A stretch of DNA of 64,000 bases from Candidatus Udaeobacter sp. (GCA_035473115.1 DATION010000002.1:105368-169367); one strand, 5' to 3'. Counted from the stretch's first letter, positions 12,464 through 52,550 are shown. Translations and numbers: made by a program. Notes: generated from the sequence alone by a model not told the origin.

Positions 12464-12932
12464 CCCTAAAGAAATTTTATTGCTTTACGCTACTAATTCT
12501 GGCAGCACGTTTGTATCCGGACAAATTATTAAAGATGTTTTGTCTCCGGATTTGGCTGTAAATATGCAAAATACCCTGGAATTTAATCCGGTAGATATCA
12601 AAAATTACGATACAATTATTTTAGGCTCGCCAAGCTGGGAGAGTAGGGGAGAGGAAGGTATGCCTACGGAAACAATGCTTAAACTATTCGATGTTTGGTC
12701 TAAAGAAGATTTTTCTAATAAAAATTTTGTTATTTATGGCTGCGGCGATGATGCTTATATAAATTTTTGCGGCGCGGTTGATCAGATGGAAAAGTTTGTT
12801 AACTTGGTAAAAGGCAAATTAATTTTTTCTTCGCTGCGTTTGAACGCTTTCTTTTTTGAATTAGATAAAAACGTGGAATTAACCAAAAAATGGGCAATTG
12901 GTTTAAAAGAAAAATTAAAGACTTTAGTTTAA
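12456..12932 (+). CDS. Flavodoxin-like protein
   Basis: ILLLYATNSGST...ILGSPSW flavodoxin fold signature. Its start overlaps the oxidoreductase beta stop (translational coupling). Confidence 0.6.
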   Translation: MNSPKEILLLYATNSGSTFVSGQIIKDVLSPDLAVNMQNTLEFNPVDIKNYDTIILGSPSWESRGEEGMPTETMLKLFDVWSKEDFSNKNFVIYGCGDDAYINFCGAVDQMEKFVNLVKGKLIFSSLRLNAFFFELDKNVELTKKWAIGLKEKLKTLV

Positions 12933-13891
12933 TTTTTGCCGCTGTGGAACTTTTTGTGGATGTCGCGCAGATGCGGATTAGTAAGATGAGTATAAATTTG
13001 CGTGGTTACTATATTTTTGTGTCCTAAAAGCTCTTGTACCGAACGCATATCCGCGCCTTGCTGCAATAAATCGGTGGCAAAACTGTGGCGCAGGGTATGC
13101 GGGGTTGCTTCTACTGGTAAACCAGCCATCACTGTATATTTCCTCACCAGTCTTTCGACTGATCTTTGAGTTAAGCGATGTTCGTTATCTTCTTCATCTT
13201 TTTTGTAATTTATAAATAGGGGAGCATACATGTCTTTTCTGGTTTTCAGGTAGTTGGCCAAAGCAGTCAAAGCTCGATTGGAAAAATAGATCGTTCGCAC
13301 GGATCCGCCTTTACCAGAGATACTTAATTCTTGGTCAGTAAATTTTCCTTTGGTTAAATCGGCAACATTAAACTGTCTTATATTAAGTGAGGTTAATTCG
13401 GAAACACGCATACCTGTAGAAAATAGTATTTCTAAAATAGCTCGATCGCGTAAACCTTCTGGAGCAGATAAGTCAGGCATCTGCATCAGTTTTTCTACCT
13501 GTTCAAATTTTAAAAATTTAATAGTTTTGTCTTTGTCAGTTAATTTTGGCAATTTTATTTTTTCTGAAGGCAAAGAAATAATGTCTTTTTCGGCAAAATA
13601 GTTTAGCAGGTTACGAATAGCGATAAGGTAGTAGTTTTGGGTCGTTTTTTTGGTATATTTGCCCTTAGAATCCTTTTTACGAGATAGATAGACCCGGTAT
13701 GACCAAATGTGCTCTGGAGTGAGTTCGTGGGGCTTTAAAGAGCTTAAATTGGACTCTGCCAACCAAGCAGTAAAGGTGCGGAGGAAGTTATTGTAGTTAC
13801 GGGTAGTTACCGGACTTAAACCTCTTTCTACCTCGCAGTATTCAAGAAAGGTAAGTATATGTTGGGGGATAGGTTTGTTGGATTGTTGCAT
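12929..13891 (-). CDS. Tyrosine site-specific recombinase (XerC/XerD-like integrase)
   Basis: N-terminal SAM-like core-binding domain. Catalytic HTLRHSFAT...LGH...TQIYTH with the terminal Tyr. Confidence 0.85.
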   Translation of the reverse strand: MQQSNKPIPQHILTFLEYCEVERGLSPVTTRNYNNFLRTFTAWLAESNLSSLKPHELTPEHIWSYRVYLSRKKDSKGKYTKKTTQNYYLIAIRNLLNYFAEKDIISLPSEKIKLPKLTDKDKTIKFLKFEQVEKLMQMPDLSAPEGLRDRAILEILFSTGMRVSELTSLNIRQFNVADLTKGKFTDQELSISGKGGSVRTIYFSNRALTALANYLKTRKDMYAPLFINYKKDEEDNEHRLTQRSVERLVRKYTVMAGLPVEATPHTLRHSFATDLLQQGADMRSVQELLGHKNIVTTQIYTHLTNPHLRDIHKKFHSGKN

Positions 13892-13952
13892 ATATAAATT
13901 ATGTCGCTTAATATAATACCATTTTTACTAATACAGCTCAACTAGAAAAATA

Positions 13953-13979
13953 TTGACTTTTTATTATAAATTTTATAAT
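13953..13979 (+). promoter_or_regulatory. Putative promoter of GC-rich cassette 1 (TTGACT-N15-TATAAT)
   Basis: Sequence match. It is followed by AGGAGG at 13988-13993, 9 nt before the ATG at 14003. Confidence 0.35.
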
Positions 13980-14002
13980 CTCTAATAAGGAGGATATGAC
14001 AA

Positions 14003-14302
14003 ATGAGAGATTATTCACGTGGAGAGGCCAGAAACATTCGACGCCTAAAGGCTGGGTTGGTCCGAACGCCTAGCGGAAAATTGGTTCGGACGAAAAATCC
14101 AGTCACCAGGAGGCGCTCGCGCTCAAAAAACAATGGCTATTGGGAGTGTACCGCTATGGTGAGCAGGAGAGCCGCTTCAACCTGGTCATCGGGCTTTGTT
14201 CATCACTACCTGCCGTGCTTTACTCGGAACAGCGCTCAAGAAGCAAGGTGTTCCAGCTGCAAACAGCCCAGAACAGCGCGCAATGAGATCAAGTTTGATT
14301 AA
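14003..14302 (+). CDS. GC-rich orphan small ORF 1 (99 aa, very basic, Arg-rich); could instead be a structured ncRNA
   Basis: Local GC about 50 % against about 33 % for the genome. Strong Shine-Dalgarno site and own promoter. No family recognised, and its codon usage is atypical for this genome. Confidence 0.35.
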   Translation: MRDYSRGEARNIRRLKAGLVRTPSGKLVRTKNPVTRRRSRSKNNGYWECTAMVSRRAASTWSSGFVHHYLPCFTRNSAQEARCSSCKQPRTARNEIKFD

Positions 14303-14338
14303 GAACGCCTAGTAAGAGTTGTGCGTTCTTACAGCAAA

Positions 14339-14410
14339 AACCATTCGTAGTTCAACCTTAGTTCTTAAAATAAGAATTGAGGTGGAGGATAGTTTACGAA
14401 TGGTTTTTTG
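14339..14410 (+). terminator. Hairpin terminator of cassette 1
   Basis: 11-bp stem (AACCATTCGTA / TACGAATGGTT) enclosing a nested TTCTTA-AAA-TAAGAA hairpin and followed by a run of six Ts. A second hairpin, AGAACGC...GCGTTCT, lies at 14303-14329. Confidence 0.5.
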
Positions 14411-14506
14411 TTTTGAGTGTTATTATTATTTTTTCTAATTGAAATATATTGCAAAAGCATTTATACTATAGCTTAAAGTAGGTTTTTAAAGTAAATAAAG
14501 TAAATT

Positions 14507-15136
14507 ATGAATCTAATAGAATTTATAGAAAGAACTAAGGGGTGGTTTGATAAAAATTGGATAGTTCTTTTAATTGGTTTTATAGCTGGTTGGTTTTTAG
14601 AACCAATGAGAGCTTTATTTAATGATTGGTTAAAAAATCAAATTGTTAAATTAGGTACAAGGATTGAAAGATTTGGAAAAGTTAAATATAAATTATCAAA
14701 AACTGGAGTTCCTATTGATGTTACAGGTATGCATTCAGGCGGGATTTTATCGGCAGTAAGTATAGTACCTTCAATTGACATTGAAACTGATCATATTGAT
14801 TTATTTACTGGTTATAAAGTCGAGATTTTTATTATAAATAATAAAAGAAGATTTAAAACACAACATAATTATTTTCATAAAAAATGCCATTGGTTATGGT
14901 CTTATACGCTTAATCAAATAAATACTTTCCCATTATCTATTGAAAATCTTCATTTTATTGATAATGAACCAATGAGAAAGCCGTACTATCAACTTTCAAC
15001 GGAAGTAGCAAGGATTGGCGTTCCCTTGGATGAAATTCGGGAAGAATTTGTAGATGTTCTGGTTTATATTAATGATAAGCTTGCAATTAAAGATAAAGTA
15101 AAAATTTTTAAAACGGGTAGTTACTTAATAGATTAA
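14507..15136 (+). CDS. Hypothetical protein with an N-terminal transmembrane helix
   Basis: 209-aa ORF with AT-rich codon usage like the host. No recognisable domain. Confidence 0.45.
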   Translation: MNLIEFIERTKGWFDKNWIVLLIGFIAGWFLEPMRALFNDWLKNQIVKLGTRIERFGKVKYKLSKTGVPIDVTGMHSGGILSAVSIVPSIDIETDHIDLFTGYKVEIFIINNKRRFKTQHNYFHKKCHWLWSYTLNQINTFPLSIENLHFIDNEPMRKPYYQLSTEVARIGVPLDEIREEFVDVLVYINDKLAIKDKVKIFKTGSYLID

Positions 15137-15306
15137 ATTCAAATACTTAGTTCGACTTTAGATGTCTATACAAGACGCCATGAACGAATTAGTTAAGAGA
15201 TAGTTCAATATATACGTCGCTTAATCTATGTTATACGACGTTAAGTATAAAACACTGAATAAAGCTGAAATGGCCAAACCTAATCCTTCCCTCTCTAAAA
15301 CCCGGC

Positions 15307-16320
15307 TTACTTCCAGTAAACCTTTTCCCCAAAGCGTAAATCAATATATTCTTTAGGTTTAATGGTGGAAAGAGTCTGTTTAAGTACATTTATTTGGCTA
15401 TCAACACTATTTGCCGGTTGAAAGATAATTTTCCATGGGCTGGCAGTTTCAATGCTTATTCCGGAATAAAGATCGTCTAAAGTAAAGAATTCAATCCCCA
15501 CTACCCTATCTTGCTTGTTTGTTTTAAACCAAGAGATAATTGCCGCAATCTGTTCAGGAGGCAAAATATGTTCCTGTTTTTCGGCAACTTCTAAGCCTCG
15601 TTTATCATAAACTAGTGGGTAATCACCAAACAATTTATTAATTTTTTTGTAGTCTGGTGTGTGTTCAAAGGTAGTAGAAGCCAGTTGAGTAGAAGTATTG
15701 TTTAAAGCAGCTAAACTAATAACGGTACTAGTATTAATTTTTTGTGATACTTCATAAGGCTGCACATCCTGTAAGAACTTAGTAGCCATACCAGAACTAT
15801 CGAGTAAGAAATATTTTTTTCCATTATCATAAATAATAGATGAGATTTTTTCTTTAACTTCAATATTTATCTGGTTAGGGAAAACTTTGGTAATTTTTAT
15901 AGTTTCAAAAGGAAATTTTTGATATAATCCCTGCTCCATCTCGGCGGCATCTACCAAAAAATAATTATTTAAAGACAAAAAACTTTTTTTATTTAAATAA
16001 TTTTCAAAAATAAATTTATCCATCTCATCTTTAGTGGTAATATTTAGGCCAAAATAATTTATTTTATTGATTTTAAAATAAGAGGCATAGGCCAAATAAG
16101 CCATCCAGCCGACCAAAATAATGATTAGGATAGTAATCTTGATTTTTGTCCCGCTTATTTTTTTGGTTTCTCTGTAAGGATTGCTTTTGTAATGAAACTT
16201 ATCTTGCGGAGCGGCGTTTATAGTTTTTTTTCTTTTAAAAATACGAAAAAAATTTTCCTTCCAACTGGTGTAAGGCTTATGCTTTTCAAAAGCGTACTCC
16301 GAGCGTATTTTTTTCATCAT
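15307..16320 (-). CDS. ftsQ: FtsQ/DivIB-like cell-division protein
   Basis: Basic cytoplasmic N-terminus, a single transmembrane helix, then a POTRA-like segment (KVFPNQINIEVKEK resembles the FtsQ P-LxIxVxER motif). Confidence 0.55.
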   Translation of the reverse strand: MMKKIRSEYAFEKHKPYTSWKENFFRIFKRKKTINAAPQDKFHYKSNPYRETKKISGTKIKITILIIILVGWMAYLAYASYFKINKINYFGLNITTKDEMDKFIFENYLNKKSFLSLNNYFLVDAAEMEQGLYQKFPFETIKITKVFPNQINIEVKEKISSIIYDNGKKYFLLDSSGMATKFLQDVQPYEVSQKINTSTVISLAALNNTSTQLASTTFEHTPDYKKINKLFGDYPLVYDKRGLEVAEKQEHILPPEQIAAIISWFKTNKQDRVVGIEFFTLDDLYSGISIETASPWKIIFQPANSVDSQINVLKQTLSTIKPKEYIDLRFGEKVYWK

Positions 16321-52030: not shown

Positions 52031-52107
52031 AAAAAAATTAGATAAATAACTATATTATTATACCAATTTTGGCTTTTTAAGACAAACAAATTCTCTACCC
52101 TCGAGGC

Positions 52108-52136
52108 TTTACAAAAAGGCCTTTTTGTGGTAGACT
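52108..52136 (+). promoter_or_regulatory. Putative promoter of GC-rich cassette 3 (TTTACA-N17-TAGACT)
   Basis: Sequence match. A GGAGGG Shine-Dalgarno site lies 5 nt before the ATG at 52183. Confidence 0.35.
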
Positions 52137-52182
52137 ATTCGCACTCTGAACAACAAACCAAACCAACCTGCGGAGGGCTAGC

Positions 52183-52479
52183 ATGAGCCAAAATCTTGAT
52201 CTGGGCGTACGCCTCGATCTTGCGGCCATGCTTTCCCAGCGCGCCGCAACAAACGATCCCAAGAGCCGAATCAGCTCAAGGGAGATAGCTCGCGAAGAAG
52301 CTCGCGAGTATGACAAATTGAGGAATTCTGCAGAACGAGCCAGCATGGATCTTTATGACAGCCAGGCAACGTTTGCAGATCCGGAACATCGAGAACTATT
52401 GAGAAAAAAACAAAGGGCAGACTATGCCTTAGACGTTTTTCTCAGAAACCTAATCTCGAAAAAGCGGCCTGGTAAATAG
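52183..52479 (+). CDS. GC-rich orphan small ORF 3 (98 aa, charged, predicted helical)
   Basis: About 52 % GC. Strong Shine-Dalgarno site and own promoter. It is followed by hairpins and a terminator. No recognised family. Confidence 0.4.
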   Translation: MSQNLDLGVRLDLAAMLSQRAATNDPKSRISSREIAREEAREYDKLRNSAERASMDLYDSQATFADPEHRELLRKKQRADYALDVFLRNLISKKRPGK

Positions 52480-52505
52480 CGAGAGCAATCTCGCTACCGT
52501 CGGCG

Positions 52506-52550
52506 GCCCGTTGCCTGGAGACCAAAATCCAGCACGGGCCTTTGTTATTT
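52506..52550 (+). terminator. Hairpin terminator of cassette 3
   Basis: GGCCCGT...ACGGGCC stem (7 bp) followed by TTTGTTATTT. An additional AGCGAG-AGCAAT-CTCGCT hairpin lies at 52478-52495. Confidence 0.5.

What the first reader, a model, noticed from the sequence alone, without database searches (positions are those of the whole stretch)
13953..14410. GC-rich autonomous cassette 1: promoter, AGGAGG, a 99-aa Arg-rich ORF and a complex terminator, next to an integrase
Roughly 400 bp at about 50 % GC in a roughly 33 % GC genome. TTGACT-N15-TATAAT precedes AAGGAGG, and 9 nt later an ORF opens that encodes a very basic protein (MRDYSRGEARNIRRLKAGLVRT...). The ORF is followed by AGAACGC...GCGTTCT and an 11-bp-stem terminator with a T6 tract. 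The ORF also contains a perfect 8-bp hairpin (GTCCGAAC...GTTCGGAC). The cassette sits beside a XerC/D-like recombinase. A structured RNA, such as a tmRNA-like molecule used as an integration target, is an alternative reading. I could not find the tmRNA, RNase P or SRP hallmark motifs.
Basis: partly seen in the sequence, partly recalled or inferred. Interest (0 to 1): 0.6.

Follow-up and report, generated by a model that had tools for sequence, protein, structure and literature searches.

The report
Foreign gene cassette inserted at dif
The GC-rich "cassette" is real, but it is not a known RNA: it is the cargo of a 1.3-kb piece of foreign DNA that has been inserted, in this strain only, between the chromosome-resolving recombinase gene (xer) and its target site (dif) at the replication terminus of a tiny CPR bacterium, a spot that turns out to collect such cassettes in related genomes.

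Summary
The context changes the meaning.

The genome is a Candidatus Magasanikbacteria (CPR) chromosome. A perfect 28-bp palindromic dif site, ACGTCGCTTAA-TCTATG-TTATACGACGT, lies at 15214-15241, 32 bp from the cumulative G-C maximum (the terminus).

In 35 of 44 related loci, dif lies 15-78 bp from the xer start codon. Here it lies 1322 bp away, and only a crippled half-site (13901-13928) remains next to xer. The closest relatives (Xer 87-89% identical) have no insert. Seven of the 44 loci, this window among them, carry 1.3-4 kb inserts, and five of those contain GC-rich promoter-bearing cassettes.

The window's long terminator hairpin and a block near dif recur in other genomes around unrelated cargo.

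The GC-rich body matches no Rfam family, tRNA or tmRNA, and folds no better than shuffled sequence. No protein homologue appears in any frame, and the predicted structure is disordered. The ORF is still longer than chance (P about 0.01) and has an ideal ribosome-binding site.

Best reading: an IMEX/dif-module-like, Xer-mediated insertion carrying an orphan small basic protein gene. A decaying remnant or an unstructured RNA remain possible.

The parts
12929..13891 (-). xer: chromosomal XerC/XerD-like tyrosine recombinase, 320 aa
   Evidence: Pfam Phage_integrase 5.8e-39 plus an N-terminal SAM-like domain. NCBIfam XerD 227 bits and XerC 224 bits, both below the equivalog cut-offs; integron integrase matches only the C-terminal 80 residues. 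Orthologues at 70-89% identity occur in more than 100 Magasanikbacteria contigs.
13901..13928 (+). Crippled dif-like site next to xer: ATGTCGCTTAA-TATAAT-ACCATTTTTAC. Left arm matches 10/11, centre 3/6, right arm 0/11.
   Evidence: left arm with 1 mismatch. repeat D2: 13900-13915 and 15213-15228 are a 14/16 direct repeat, 1313 bp apart start to start. It sits where the dif left arm sits in uninserted relatives.
13913..13941 (-). Outward-facing promoter-like site TTGAGC-17-(TG)TATTAT pointing into xer. Probable replacement for the native xer promoter.
   Evidence: Promoter scan. In uninserted relatives the xer promoter TTGAC(C)-17-TATTAT lies on the far side of dif. Its function here is inferred.
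13953..13979 (+). Cassette promoter TTGACT-N15-TATAAT
   Evidence: Read from the sequence. The same geometry, TTGACA-N15-TATAAA, precedes the L006/L011/L126 cassettes. Not tested experimentally.
13987..13993 (+). Shine-Dalgarno AAGGAGG, 9 nt before the ATG
14003..14302 (+). 99-codon ORF in the GC-rich body: an orphan, very basic product (pI 11.4) with Cys/His pairs HHxxxC...CxxC
   Evidence: ORF length P = 0.008. No homologue. AF2 pLDDT 38.8. Atypical codon-position GC of 0.43/0.58/0.54. Codon score -0.16 bits per codon.
14302..14329 (+). First 3' hairpin, AGAACGC...GCGTTCT, overlapping the stop codon
14335..14412 (+). Long hairpin of about 32 bp flanked by an A-run and a T-run: a bidirectional intrinsic terminator. 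It is a conserved module end-block shared with L006, L011 and L126.
   Evidence: nhmmer. RNAalifold gave 32 pairs, 6 of them with compensatory changes. Covariance model R1 scored 74-104 bits in L006/L011/L126 and nowhere else in 83 sources.
14439..14467 (+). Promoter-like site TTGAAA-17-TATACT ahead of the 209-aa ORF
   Evidence: 10 of 12 consensus matches.
14507..15136 (+). Second cargo gene of the insert: an AT-rich (28% GC) orphan ORF of 209 aa
   Evidence: The only hit is itself among 5.8 billion clusters. No Pfam, PHROG, PADLOC or NCBIfam match.
15149..15188 (+). Right-end block (ACTTTAGATGYCTA...CGCCATGAAYGAA), shared with the insert of L126 just before dif
   Evidence: blastn gave 80% identity over 40 nt, E = 2e-4, colinear with the hairpin and dif matches.
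15214..15241 (+). Intact chromosomal dif: ACGTCGCTTAA-TCTATG-TTATACGACGT, with near-palindromic arms (9/11)
   Evidence: Unique perfect match in the window, 0 expected by chance. The core is single-copy in 33 metagenome contigs and in the relatives' loci, always between the ftsQ-like gene and xer. The cumulative G-C maximum is at 15273.
15242..15283 (-). Decayed native xer promoter: TTGGCC-17-TGTTTT here, against TTGACN-17-TATTAT in relatives
   Evidence: MAFFT alignment of 13 uninserted relatives with the window. Three consensus-breaking changes. The decay is an inference.
15307..16320 (-). ftsQ-like gene that directly follows dif in uninserted relatives. It marks the far boundary of the insertion site.

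Best explanation
Window 13953-14410 is one transcription unit: promoter, ribosome-binding site, a 99-codon ORF and two 3' hairpins. It lies inside a strain-specific insertion of about 1.3 kb (13912-15213) between the chromosomal xer gene and its dif site, at the replication terminus of a Candidatus Magasanikbacteria genome.

Proposed history (inferred, not shown): a small non-replicating DNA circle carrying a dif-like site was recombined into dif by the host Xer recombinase, as happens for IMEX elements and dif modules. That produced an intact dif on the ftsQ side (15214-15241). The copy next to xer (13901-13928) kept only the left arm, which blocks re-excision and fixes the insert.

The left end of the insert supplies a new outward promoter for xer. 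The native xer promoter, which normally reads through dif, was left 1.3 kb away and has decayed.

The GC-rich body is foreign cargo. It most likely encodes an orphan, highly basic 11.5-kDa protein with a possible Cys/His metal site, expressed from its own promoter and terminated by a conserved bidirectional terminator that belongs to the element's shared framework. What the protein does is unknown. A nucleic-acid-binding role, possibly helping Xer recombination as XafT of TLC-phi does, is speculation.

Shown: the dif identity, the insertion, its absence in close relatives, the shared end-blocks, and the absence of any known RNA or protein family. Inferred: Xer-mediated integration, the promoter replacement, and translation of the ORF.
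For: dif identity:
- The 28-bp site is unique in the window, with 0 expected by chance.
- It is conserved and single-copy in about 50 related loci.
- It is AT-rich, non-coding and near-palindromic.
- It lies 32 bp from the cumulative G-C maximum at 15273. Skew is +0.118 to the left and -0.088 to the right. Gene orientation flips there.

Insertion:
- Of 44 loci with both the xer start and dif, 35 have dif 15-78 bp from the xer ATG, 2 have 153-172 bp, and 7 (including this window) have 1.3-4.0 kb.
- The closest relatives, with Xer 87-89% identical, have ftsQ-dif-xer with no insert.
- The insert is bounded by a 14/16 direct repeat of the dif left arm (D2).

Recurrent cargo type: 5 of the 7 inserts contain at least 200 bp at GC >= 0.54, against a 0.36-0.41 background. 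In relatives these blocks have consensus promoters and real ORFs. For example, the 105-aa ORF of L006 and L011 is 72% identical with no indels.

Modular framework: the terminator hairpin (E = 1e-7), the right-end block (E = 2e-4) and dif are colinear between the window and L126, around unrelated cargo. The hairpin shows compensatory changes.

For coding: ORF length P = 0.008. AAGGAGG lies 9 nt before the ATG, and the stop codon abuts the first hairpin.

Against an RNA gene.

Known precedents: IMEX elements, and integration that leaves one intact and one modified dif (PMC9765430). xer-dif genetic modules (PMC2731167).
Against: On mobility:
- No second copy of the window's body or of the 209-aa gene was found. 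Searched were about 125 related loci, viral contigs, phages, plasmids and 1.84 billion protein representatives. Mobility of this particular insert is therefore not demonstrated.
- No circular form or empty-site allele was tested.
- The xer-proximal site could also have arisen by deletion within a once-complete second dif. In L006-L011 and L105 the crippled site keeps the opposite arm, so no single simple integration scheme fits all loci.

On coding:
- Codon-position GC of 0.43/0.58/0.54 is atypical.
- A codon model trained on the relatives' GC-rich cassette genes scores the ORF frame at -0.16 bits per codon, like a wrong frame.
- AF2 gives pLDDT 38.8.
- The gene callers behind the public collections did not call the ORF, and the HMMER search did not even find the ORF itself.
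- The promoter spacer is 15 nt, which is short.
Confidence: 0.6

Rival explanations
1. The GC-rich body is inert or decaying foreign DNA, such as a pseudogene or a fragment captured with the element. The 99-codon ORF is a by-product of GC-rich composition, and only the promoter and terminator framework is functional or recently was.
For: No homologue in any of six frames or by full HMMER. Disordered prediction. Codon score like a wrong frame, with no frame scoring positive. GC highest at codon position 2. Not called by gene finders.
Against: An ORF this long is rare in shuffles (P = 0.008). A perfect Shine-Dalgarno sits at ideal spacing, and the ORF fills the space between the ribosome-binding site and the terminator. 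Equivalent cassettes in relatives encode conserved proteins.
Confidence: 0.22
2. It is a gene for a new non-coding RNA of about 420 nt, transcribed from its own promoter. The RNA acts as a regulator or an element-encoded factor, and the ORF is not translated.
For: GC-rich islands in AT-rich genomes are often RNA genes. There is an own promoter and a strong terminator. Local perfect hairpins lie at 14060-14091 and 14302-14329. Protein-coding statistics are poor.
Against: No Rfam family even at E<=10 on the 800-nt region. No tRNA or tmRNA. The body folds no better than shuffles on either strand (z = -0.11 and +0.25). No homologues exist to test covariation. It is absent from the nearest relatives, so it is not a housekeeping RNA. 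The perfect Shine-Dalgarno, ATG and long ORF would be left unexplained.
Confidence: 0.12
3. It is an integron-like gene cassette. The neighbouring recombinase would be an integron integrase, and the long 3' hairpin an attC-type folded recombination site.
For: A tyrosine recombinase is transcribed divergently from an array of small, unrelated cassettes of foreign composition. An imperfect 80-nt hairpin at the 3' end of the cassette is conserved across different cargo.
Against: The recombinase scores as XerC/XerD. It matches the integron-integrase models only over the C-terminal catalytic 80 residues, far below cut-off. It is the conserved chromosomal Xer next to dif at the terminus. The cassettes carry their own promoters. 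The hairpin has the A-run/T-run form of a bidirectional terminator and occurs in only 4 of about 85 loci, not at every cassette boundary. The boundaries are dif-like duplex sites.
Confidence: 0.04

Closest known systems
IMEX (integrative mobile elements exploiting Xer: CTX-phi, TLC-phi, VGJ-phi, the gonococcal genetic island, Legionella LME-1)
   Same: The DNA is integrated exactly at the chromosomal dif and carries no recombinase of its own. After integration, one flank is an intact dif and the other a modified, poorly recombining copy, as described for LME-1 (PMC9765430). Different elements occupy the same site in different strains.
   Different: At 1.3 kb it is far smaller than known IMEX elements (phages, islands, plasmids) and has no replication, packaging or transfer genes. 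No free or second copy was found. The host is a CPR bacterium with what appears to be a single Xer whose gene abuts dif. The cargo is GC-rich relative to the host.
Acinetobacter dif modules (small gene modules bounded by pdif XerC/XerD sites on plasmids)
   Same: Both are small (0.5-5 kb), non-autonomous modules of one or two genes with their own expression signals. They are bounded by Xer sites, shuffled between replicons, and accumulate in arrays (PMC6449649, PMC13141974).
   Different: The Acinetobacter modules lie on plasmids between complete, inversely oriented pdif sites. Here the site is the chromosomal dif at the terminus. The window's flanking sites are in direct orientation, and one is only a half-site.
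Single-recombinase xer-dif genetic modules (XerS/difSL of streptococci, XerH/difH of epsilon-proteobacteria, XerL of Legionellales)
   Same: dif lies immediately next to the recombinase gene at the terminus, with near-palindromic arms suited to one recombinase (PMC2731167).
   Different: The protein is of ordinary XerC/XerD length and type (320 aa), not XerS or XerH. dif has the canonical 11-6-11 layout. The xer promoter appears to read through dif. Whether a second Xer exists elsewhere in the genome could not be checked.
Integron gene cassettes
   Same: An array of small unrelated genes of foreign composition sits next to a divergently transcribed tyrosine recombinase, and a 3' hairpin is conserved.
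   Different: There is no IntI-specific features, attI or attC. The cassettes carry their own promoters, and recombination sites are duplex dif-like sites.

Membership tests
IMEX | Integrated at the chromosomal dif site | tested here: met
   The insert lies between xer and the intact dif. Uninserted relatives have dif 15-78 bp from xer. dif is at the G-C skew maximum.
IMEX | [quoted passage not shown] | tested here: met
   A 14/16 direct repeat of the left arm plus the start of the centre lies at 13900-13915 and 15213-15228. The proximal copy lacks a right arm.
IMEX | No recombinase of its own; uses the host Xer | tested here: met
   The insert holds only the 99-aa and 209-aa ORFs, and neither matches any family. 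That the host Xer was used is inferred.
IMEX | Mobile: the same element occurs in other genomes or as a free or circular form, with Xer-dependent integration and excision | tested here: not met
   No second copy of the body or of the 209-aa gene was found anywhere searched. Only the end-blocks recur. Xer dependence is not testable with these tools.
Acinetobacter-type dif module | Bounded by two complete Xer sites in inverse orientation on a plasmid | tested here: not met
   The location is chromosomal, the window's sites are in direct orientation, and one is a half-site. In L006-L011 and L105 the proximal site can be read as inverted.
Chromosomal dif / Xer dimer-resolution module | A site of about 28-30 bp that is AT-rich, partly palindromic, non-coding, unique, and at the replication terminus | tested here: met
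   The arms match 9/11 as a palindrome.
Chromosomal dif / Xer dimer-resolution module | A single recombinase is sufficient (no second Xer paralogue in the genome) | not testable with these tools
   No paralogue is present in the 64-kb window. The rest of the genome is not available.
Integron | IntI-type integrase with the integron-specific insertion, plus attI and attC sites | tested here: not met
   The NCBIfam integron-integrase models match residues 232-311 only, at 102 and 65 bits against cut-offs of 265 and 435. The cassette boundaries are dif-like sites.
Known structured RNAs (tmRNA, RNase P RNA, 6S, SRP, riboswitches and all other Rfam 15 families) | Match to the family covariance model at or near the gathering score | tested here: not met
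   There were 0 matches at gathering threshold in the whole window. The best local hits are unrelated families far below threshold. ARAGORN found nothing.
Conserved protein family (any) | Detectable sequence homologues | tested here: not met
   The six-frame word-indexed search found none at E<=10. phmmer against 1.84 billion representatives found 0 at E<=0.001. Pfam, PHROGs, PADLOC and NCBIfam gave nothing significant.

The most novel reading that the evidence does not exclude
The xer-dif interval of Magasanikbacteria (CPR) is a gene-capture platform working like an integron but built from the housekeeping dimer-resolution system. A single chromosomal Xer, whose own promoter reads through dif, repeatedly captures small, non-replicating, promoter-bearing cassettes. 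These cassettes are often GC-rich, share conserved end-blocks (the long terminator hairpin and the block before dif) and swap cargo. The window's 99-aa basic Cys/His protein would be one such cargo, possibly an element-encoded DNA-binding or Xer-helper factor.
Probability: 0.25. Interest if true: 0.7.

Novelty: new variant of a known kind. Interest (0 to 1): 0.45.

Why it matters
CPR bacteria have tiny genomes, and little is known about how they acquire genes. This locus points to a concrete route: the housekeeping Xer/dif machinery at the terminus acts as a landing pad for small foreign expression cassettes.

It also gives a testable dif site and a xer-dif genetic module for a phylum where I found none described in the searched literature.

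For annotation, it explains why GC-rich, orphan, promoter-bearing islands sit beside an "integrase" in these genomes. It also warns against calling them ncRNA genes or prophage remnants.

Tried and rejected
- Known RNA: Rfam on the whole window at gathering threshold, on 13800-14600 at E<=10, and on 15 related loci all gave nothing. ARAGORN gave nothing.
- Structured RNA by energy: the apparent z = -3.6 disappears once the 3' hairpins are removed.
- Conserved synteny with an RNA next to xer in relatives: nhmmer found only the terminator hairpin.
- Protein homology: six-frame concatenated search, phmmer on 1.84 billion representatives, Pfam, PHROGs, PADLOC and NCBIfam, and viral contigs by back-translated peptides all found nothing.
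- Single-sequence AF2 was uninformative (pLDDT 38.8), so no fold search was run.
- Phage or plasmid origin: blastn of the 1.3-kb insert found no match. tblastn of a relative's 221-aa cassette protein against plasmids found no match.
- Hairpin family in JGI metagenomes by pattern: 0 hits.
- dif left arm plus centre in viral contigs: 4 hits that look like chance 16-mers, with no right arm and no xer. The predicted attP junction gave 0 hits.
- The hairpin as a dif mimic in the manner of CTX-phi: by eye only a 5-nt TACGA core is shared. Rejected as unsupported.
- A 21-nt imperfect inverted repeat flanks the cassette (13930-13950 / 14430-14450, I1). It is no better than a dozen other AT-rich pairs in the same 1.4 kb, so it is not taken as terminal repeats.
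- An internal site CTATAGCTTAA at about 14468 as a boundary between two modules: it matches the left arm at only 7/11, so it stays a possibility, not a finding.

Full report
**What is there.**
- TTGACT (13953-13958), a 15-nt spacer, then TATAAT (13974-13979).
- AAGGAGG (13987-13993).
- ATG at 14003 opening a 99-codon ORF that ends at 14302.
- An internal 8-bp hairpin (14060-14067 / 14084-14091).
- A hairpin AGAACGC/GCGTTCT (14302-14329).
- A large hairpin followed by a T-run (14335-14412).

GC is 0.52-0.545 across 14001-14300, against 0.369 for the window. The neighbouring ORF 12929-13891 on the minus strand is a tyrosine recombinase.

**It is not a known RNA, and the body is not unusually structured.** Rfam 15 gives nothing at gathering threshold for the whole window. 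A permissive scan of 13800-14600 returns only far-sub-threshold matches to unrelated families. ARAGORN finds no tRNA or tmRNA in 64 kb. The full 428 nt folds better than shuffles (z = -3.6), but that signal comes from the two 3' hairpins. The body 13985-14300 has z = -0.11 on the plus strand and +0.25 on the minus strand.

**Organism and recombinase.** The recombinase has more than 100 orthologues at 70-100% identity, named where named at all as Magasanikbacteria / Parcubacteria / Patescibacteria. NCBIfam scores it about equally as XerD (227 bits) and XerC (224 bits), both below the equivalog cut-offs. The integron-integrase models match only the C-terminal catalytic stretch. The flanking genes are housekeeping: ADP-forming acetyl-CoA synthetase, 2-oxoacid:ferredoxin oxidoreductase, flavodoxin, an ftsQ-like gene, alanine racemase and seryl-tRNA synthetase. 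This is therefore the chromosomal Xer, not a prophage integrase.

**The key observation: dif.** Just upstream of xer, relatives carry a conserved 28-bp site, ACGTCGCTTAA-TCTATG-TTATACGACGT. It has 11-bp near-palindromic arms (9/11) and a 6-bp centre.
- The window has exactly one perfect copy, at 15214-15241, with none expected by chance.
- Its 20-nt core occurs once per contig in 33 JGI/ENA metagenome contigs and in no viral contig.
- Wherever enough sequence is present, it lies between the 3' end of the ftsQ-like gene and the 5' end of xer.
- In the window the cumulative G-C curve peaks at 15273, 32 bp past the site. Skew is +0.118 to the left and -0.088 to the right. Genes switch from the plus strand to the minus strand there.

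Size, AT-richness, palindromy, uniqueness, a non-coding position and the location at the skew switch are the criteria used to recognise dif (PMC9765430). A dif genetically linked to a single xer gene is known for XerS/difSL and XerH/difH (PMC2731167). I conclude this is the chromosomal dif.

**The cassette lies in an insertion at dif.** I surveyed 44 loci that contain both the xer start and dif:

| Distance from xer ATG to dif | Loci |
|---|---|
| 15-78 bp | 35 |
| 153-172 bp | 2 |
| 1.3-4.0 kb | 7 (window: 1322 bp) |

- The closest relatives (Xer 87-89% identical: L003, L083-L088, L103, L121) all have ftsQ-dif-xer with no insert.
- In the window, the position next to xer where dif normally sits holds ATGTCGCTTAA-TATAAT-ACCATTTTTAC (13901-13928). 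Its left arm matches 10/11, its centre 3/6 and its right arm 0/11.
- With the intact site it forms a 14/16 direct repeat, 1313 bp apart start to start (D2).

One intact dif plus one modified copy flanking inserted DNA is the signature of Xer-mediated integration. It is also known to stabilise the integrated form (LME-1, PMC9765430). The insert carries no recombinase. It holds only the GC-rich cassette and an AT-rich orphan ORF of 209 aa with its own promoter-like site.

**The same site collects other cassettes.** Inserts in L006-L011, L122, L124-L126 and L105 differ in content. Five of the seven fully delimited inserts contain at least 200 bp at GC >= 0.54, against backgrounds of 0.36-0.41. 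In the whole 64-kb window only three such stretches exist. In relatives these GC-rich blocks start at consensus promoters and contain plausible ORFs. L008, for example, has TTGACA-17-TATAAT immediately after a left-arm-like site. The 105-aa ORF of L006 and L011 is 72% identical with no indels. None of these ORFs matches Pfam, PHROGs or PADLOC.

**Shared framework, swapped cargo.**
- The window's 3' hairpin is homologous to the hairpin ending the (unrelated) GC-rich cassette of L006, L011 and L126 (nhmmer).
- The three-sequence alignment folds into about 32 pairs, with compensatory changes at six of them, and has an A-run before and a T-run after.
- A covariance model built from it finds only these four loci among 83 sources.
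- A 40-nt block shortly before dif (15149-15188) is also shared with L126 (80%, E = 2e-4). It is colinear with the hairpin and dif matches, while everything between is unrelated.

I read the hairpin as a strong bidirectional intrinsic terminator that belongs to the element's framework. I found no support for it being an attC-like or CTX-like folded recombination site.

**A side effect on xer expression (inferred).** In uninserted relatives the xer-sense strand reads TTGAC(C)-17-TATTAT, then dif, then about 15-25 nt, then the xer ATG. xer therefore appears to be transcribed through dif. In the window the copy of this promoter beside the intact dif reads TTGGCC-17-TGTTTT, with three consensus-breaking changes. 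A new TTGAGC-17-(TG)TATTAT lies on the minus strand at 13941-13913, inside the left end of the insert. It sits back-to-back with the cassette promoter.

**Is the 99-codon ORF a gene?** The signals conflict.

For coding:
- An ORF this long occurs in 0.8% of dinucleotide shuffles on the plus strand.
- It has a perfect Shine-Dalgarno at 9 nt.
- It fills the space between the ribosome-binding site and the terminator.
- Equivalent cassettes elsewhere encode proteins.
- The product has an HHxxxC...CxxC arrangement, which could bind metal.

Against coding:
- No homologue in any of six frames, nor by exhaustive phmmer against 1.84 billion representatives. That search did not even return the ORF itself, so no public gene call includes it.
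- AF2 predicts disorder (pLDDT 38.8).
- GC is highest at codon position 2 (0.43/0.58/0.54).
- A codon model trained on the relatives' GC-rich cassette genes ranks the true frame top in 5 of 7 leave-one-out tests. It gives the window's ORF frame -0.16 bits per codon, like a wrong frame.

My estimates are: orphan protein about 0.55, inert or decaying DNA about 0.25, unstructured RNA about 0.12.

**What remains unexplained.**
- The source of the GC-rich DNA is unknown. Phages, plasmids and viral contigs gave no match.
- In L006-L011 and L105 the crippled xer-proximal site keeps the right-arm-like half, not the left-arm half kept in the window. So either both arms were once present and different halves decayed, or some sites are inverted as in Acinetobacter dif modules.
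- Several relatives carry 60-150 bp of inverted left-arm copies between xer and dif, probably scars of past events.

**Comparison and verdict.** It works like an IMEX or a dif module: DNA without a recombinase, integrated at dif by the host Xer, and stabilised by a defective second site. As a member of the IMEX class it meets three of four testable criteria. It fails the mobility criterion, since no second copy or free form was found. It differs in its very small size, its CPR host, the xer-adjacent dif and its GC-rich promoter-bearing cargo. It is not an integron cassette and not a known RNA. I found no paper linking CPR bacteria with Xer/dif. I rate it a new variant of a known kind, of moderate interest. 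The interest lies more in the locus (a xer-dif capture site in CPR genomes) than in the 99-aa ORF itself.

Noticed in passing
window 15242-15283 (-) and 13913-13941 (-); relatives L003, L004, L012, L086, L103, L116, L121: In uninserted relatives the xer promoter (TTGACN-17-TATTAT) lies beyond dif, so xer seems to be transcribed through its own recombination site, which could allow autoregulation. In the window that promoter has three consensus-breaking changes, and a substitute promoter sits inside the insert.
   Followed up: partly
L083, L084, L005/L101, L090, L013: between xer and dif: These loci hold 60-150 bp made of inverted copies of the dif left arm (AGATTAAGCGAC / GTCGCTTAATCT) and related TTAAGC/GCTTAA palindromes. 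They look like scars of earlier recombination events.
   Followed up: no
L006, L010, L011, L126: about 55 nt between the cassette promoter and the 105-aa ORF: The 5' leader is conserved and has a hairpin that shows a compensatory change (ACCGCT...AGCGGT versus ACCGTT...AACGGT). It may be a regulatory leader of that GC-rich cassette. A possible 29-aa ORF between the main ORF and the hairpin is conserved between L006 and L011.
   Followed up: no
window 52100-52540: A second GC-rich island (0.53-0.54) has a promoter-like TTTACA...TAGACT, a 98-aa ORF (52183-52479) with no Pfam match, and two 3' hairpins. It is not flanked by dif-like sites, so it is a different kind of insertion or a native orphan gene.
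   Followed up: partly
L052 about 5834, L074 about 6126, L075 about 6001: Three other Parcubacteria loci share a conserved motif, AACAAAACCGCCAAGATGCGGTGGAGGATTTTCGC...GGCGGTTT. It may be a small RNA or a terminator-like element and is unrelated to this finding.
   Followed up: no
L007 (xer-to-dif orientation) 929-1303 and 1782-2111: Two GC-rich cassettes in one 4-kb insert encode paralogous proteins of about 110-120 aa on opposite strands (...LKLTFKRTAPAIVFRHL... versus ...LRLQFKYGATGAVRELL...). This suggests duplication or inversion of cassettes within the array.
   Followed up: no
window 14064-14073 and 14303-14312: An exact 10-nt direct repeat, GAACGCCTAG, sits in the loop region of the internal hairpin and again in the first 3' hairpin. 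Its significance is unknown and it may be chance.
   Followed up: no
NCBI record behind the window (P0001, P0121): The source MAG is labelled Candidatus Udaeobacter sp. (Verrucomicrobiota) in NCBI. The gene content and all close relatives are Magasanikbacteria/Patescibacteria, so the label is probably a taxonomic mis-assignment or mis-binning.
   Followed up: partly
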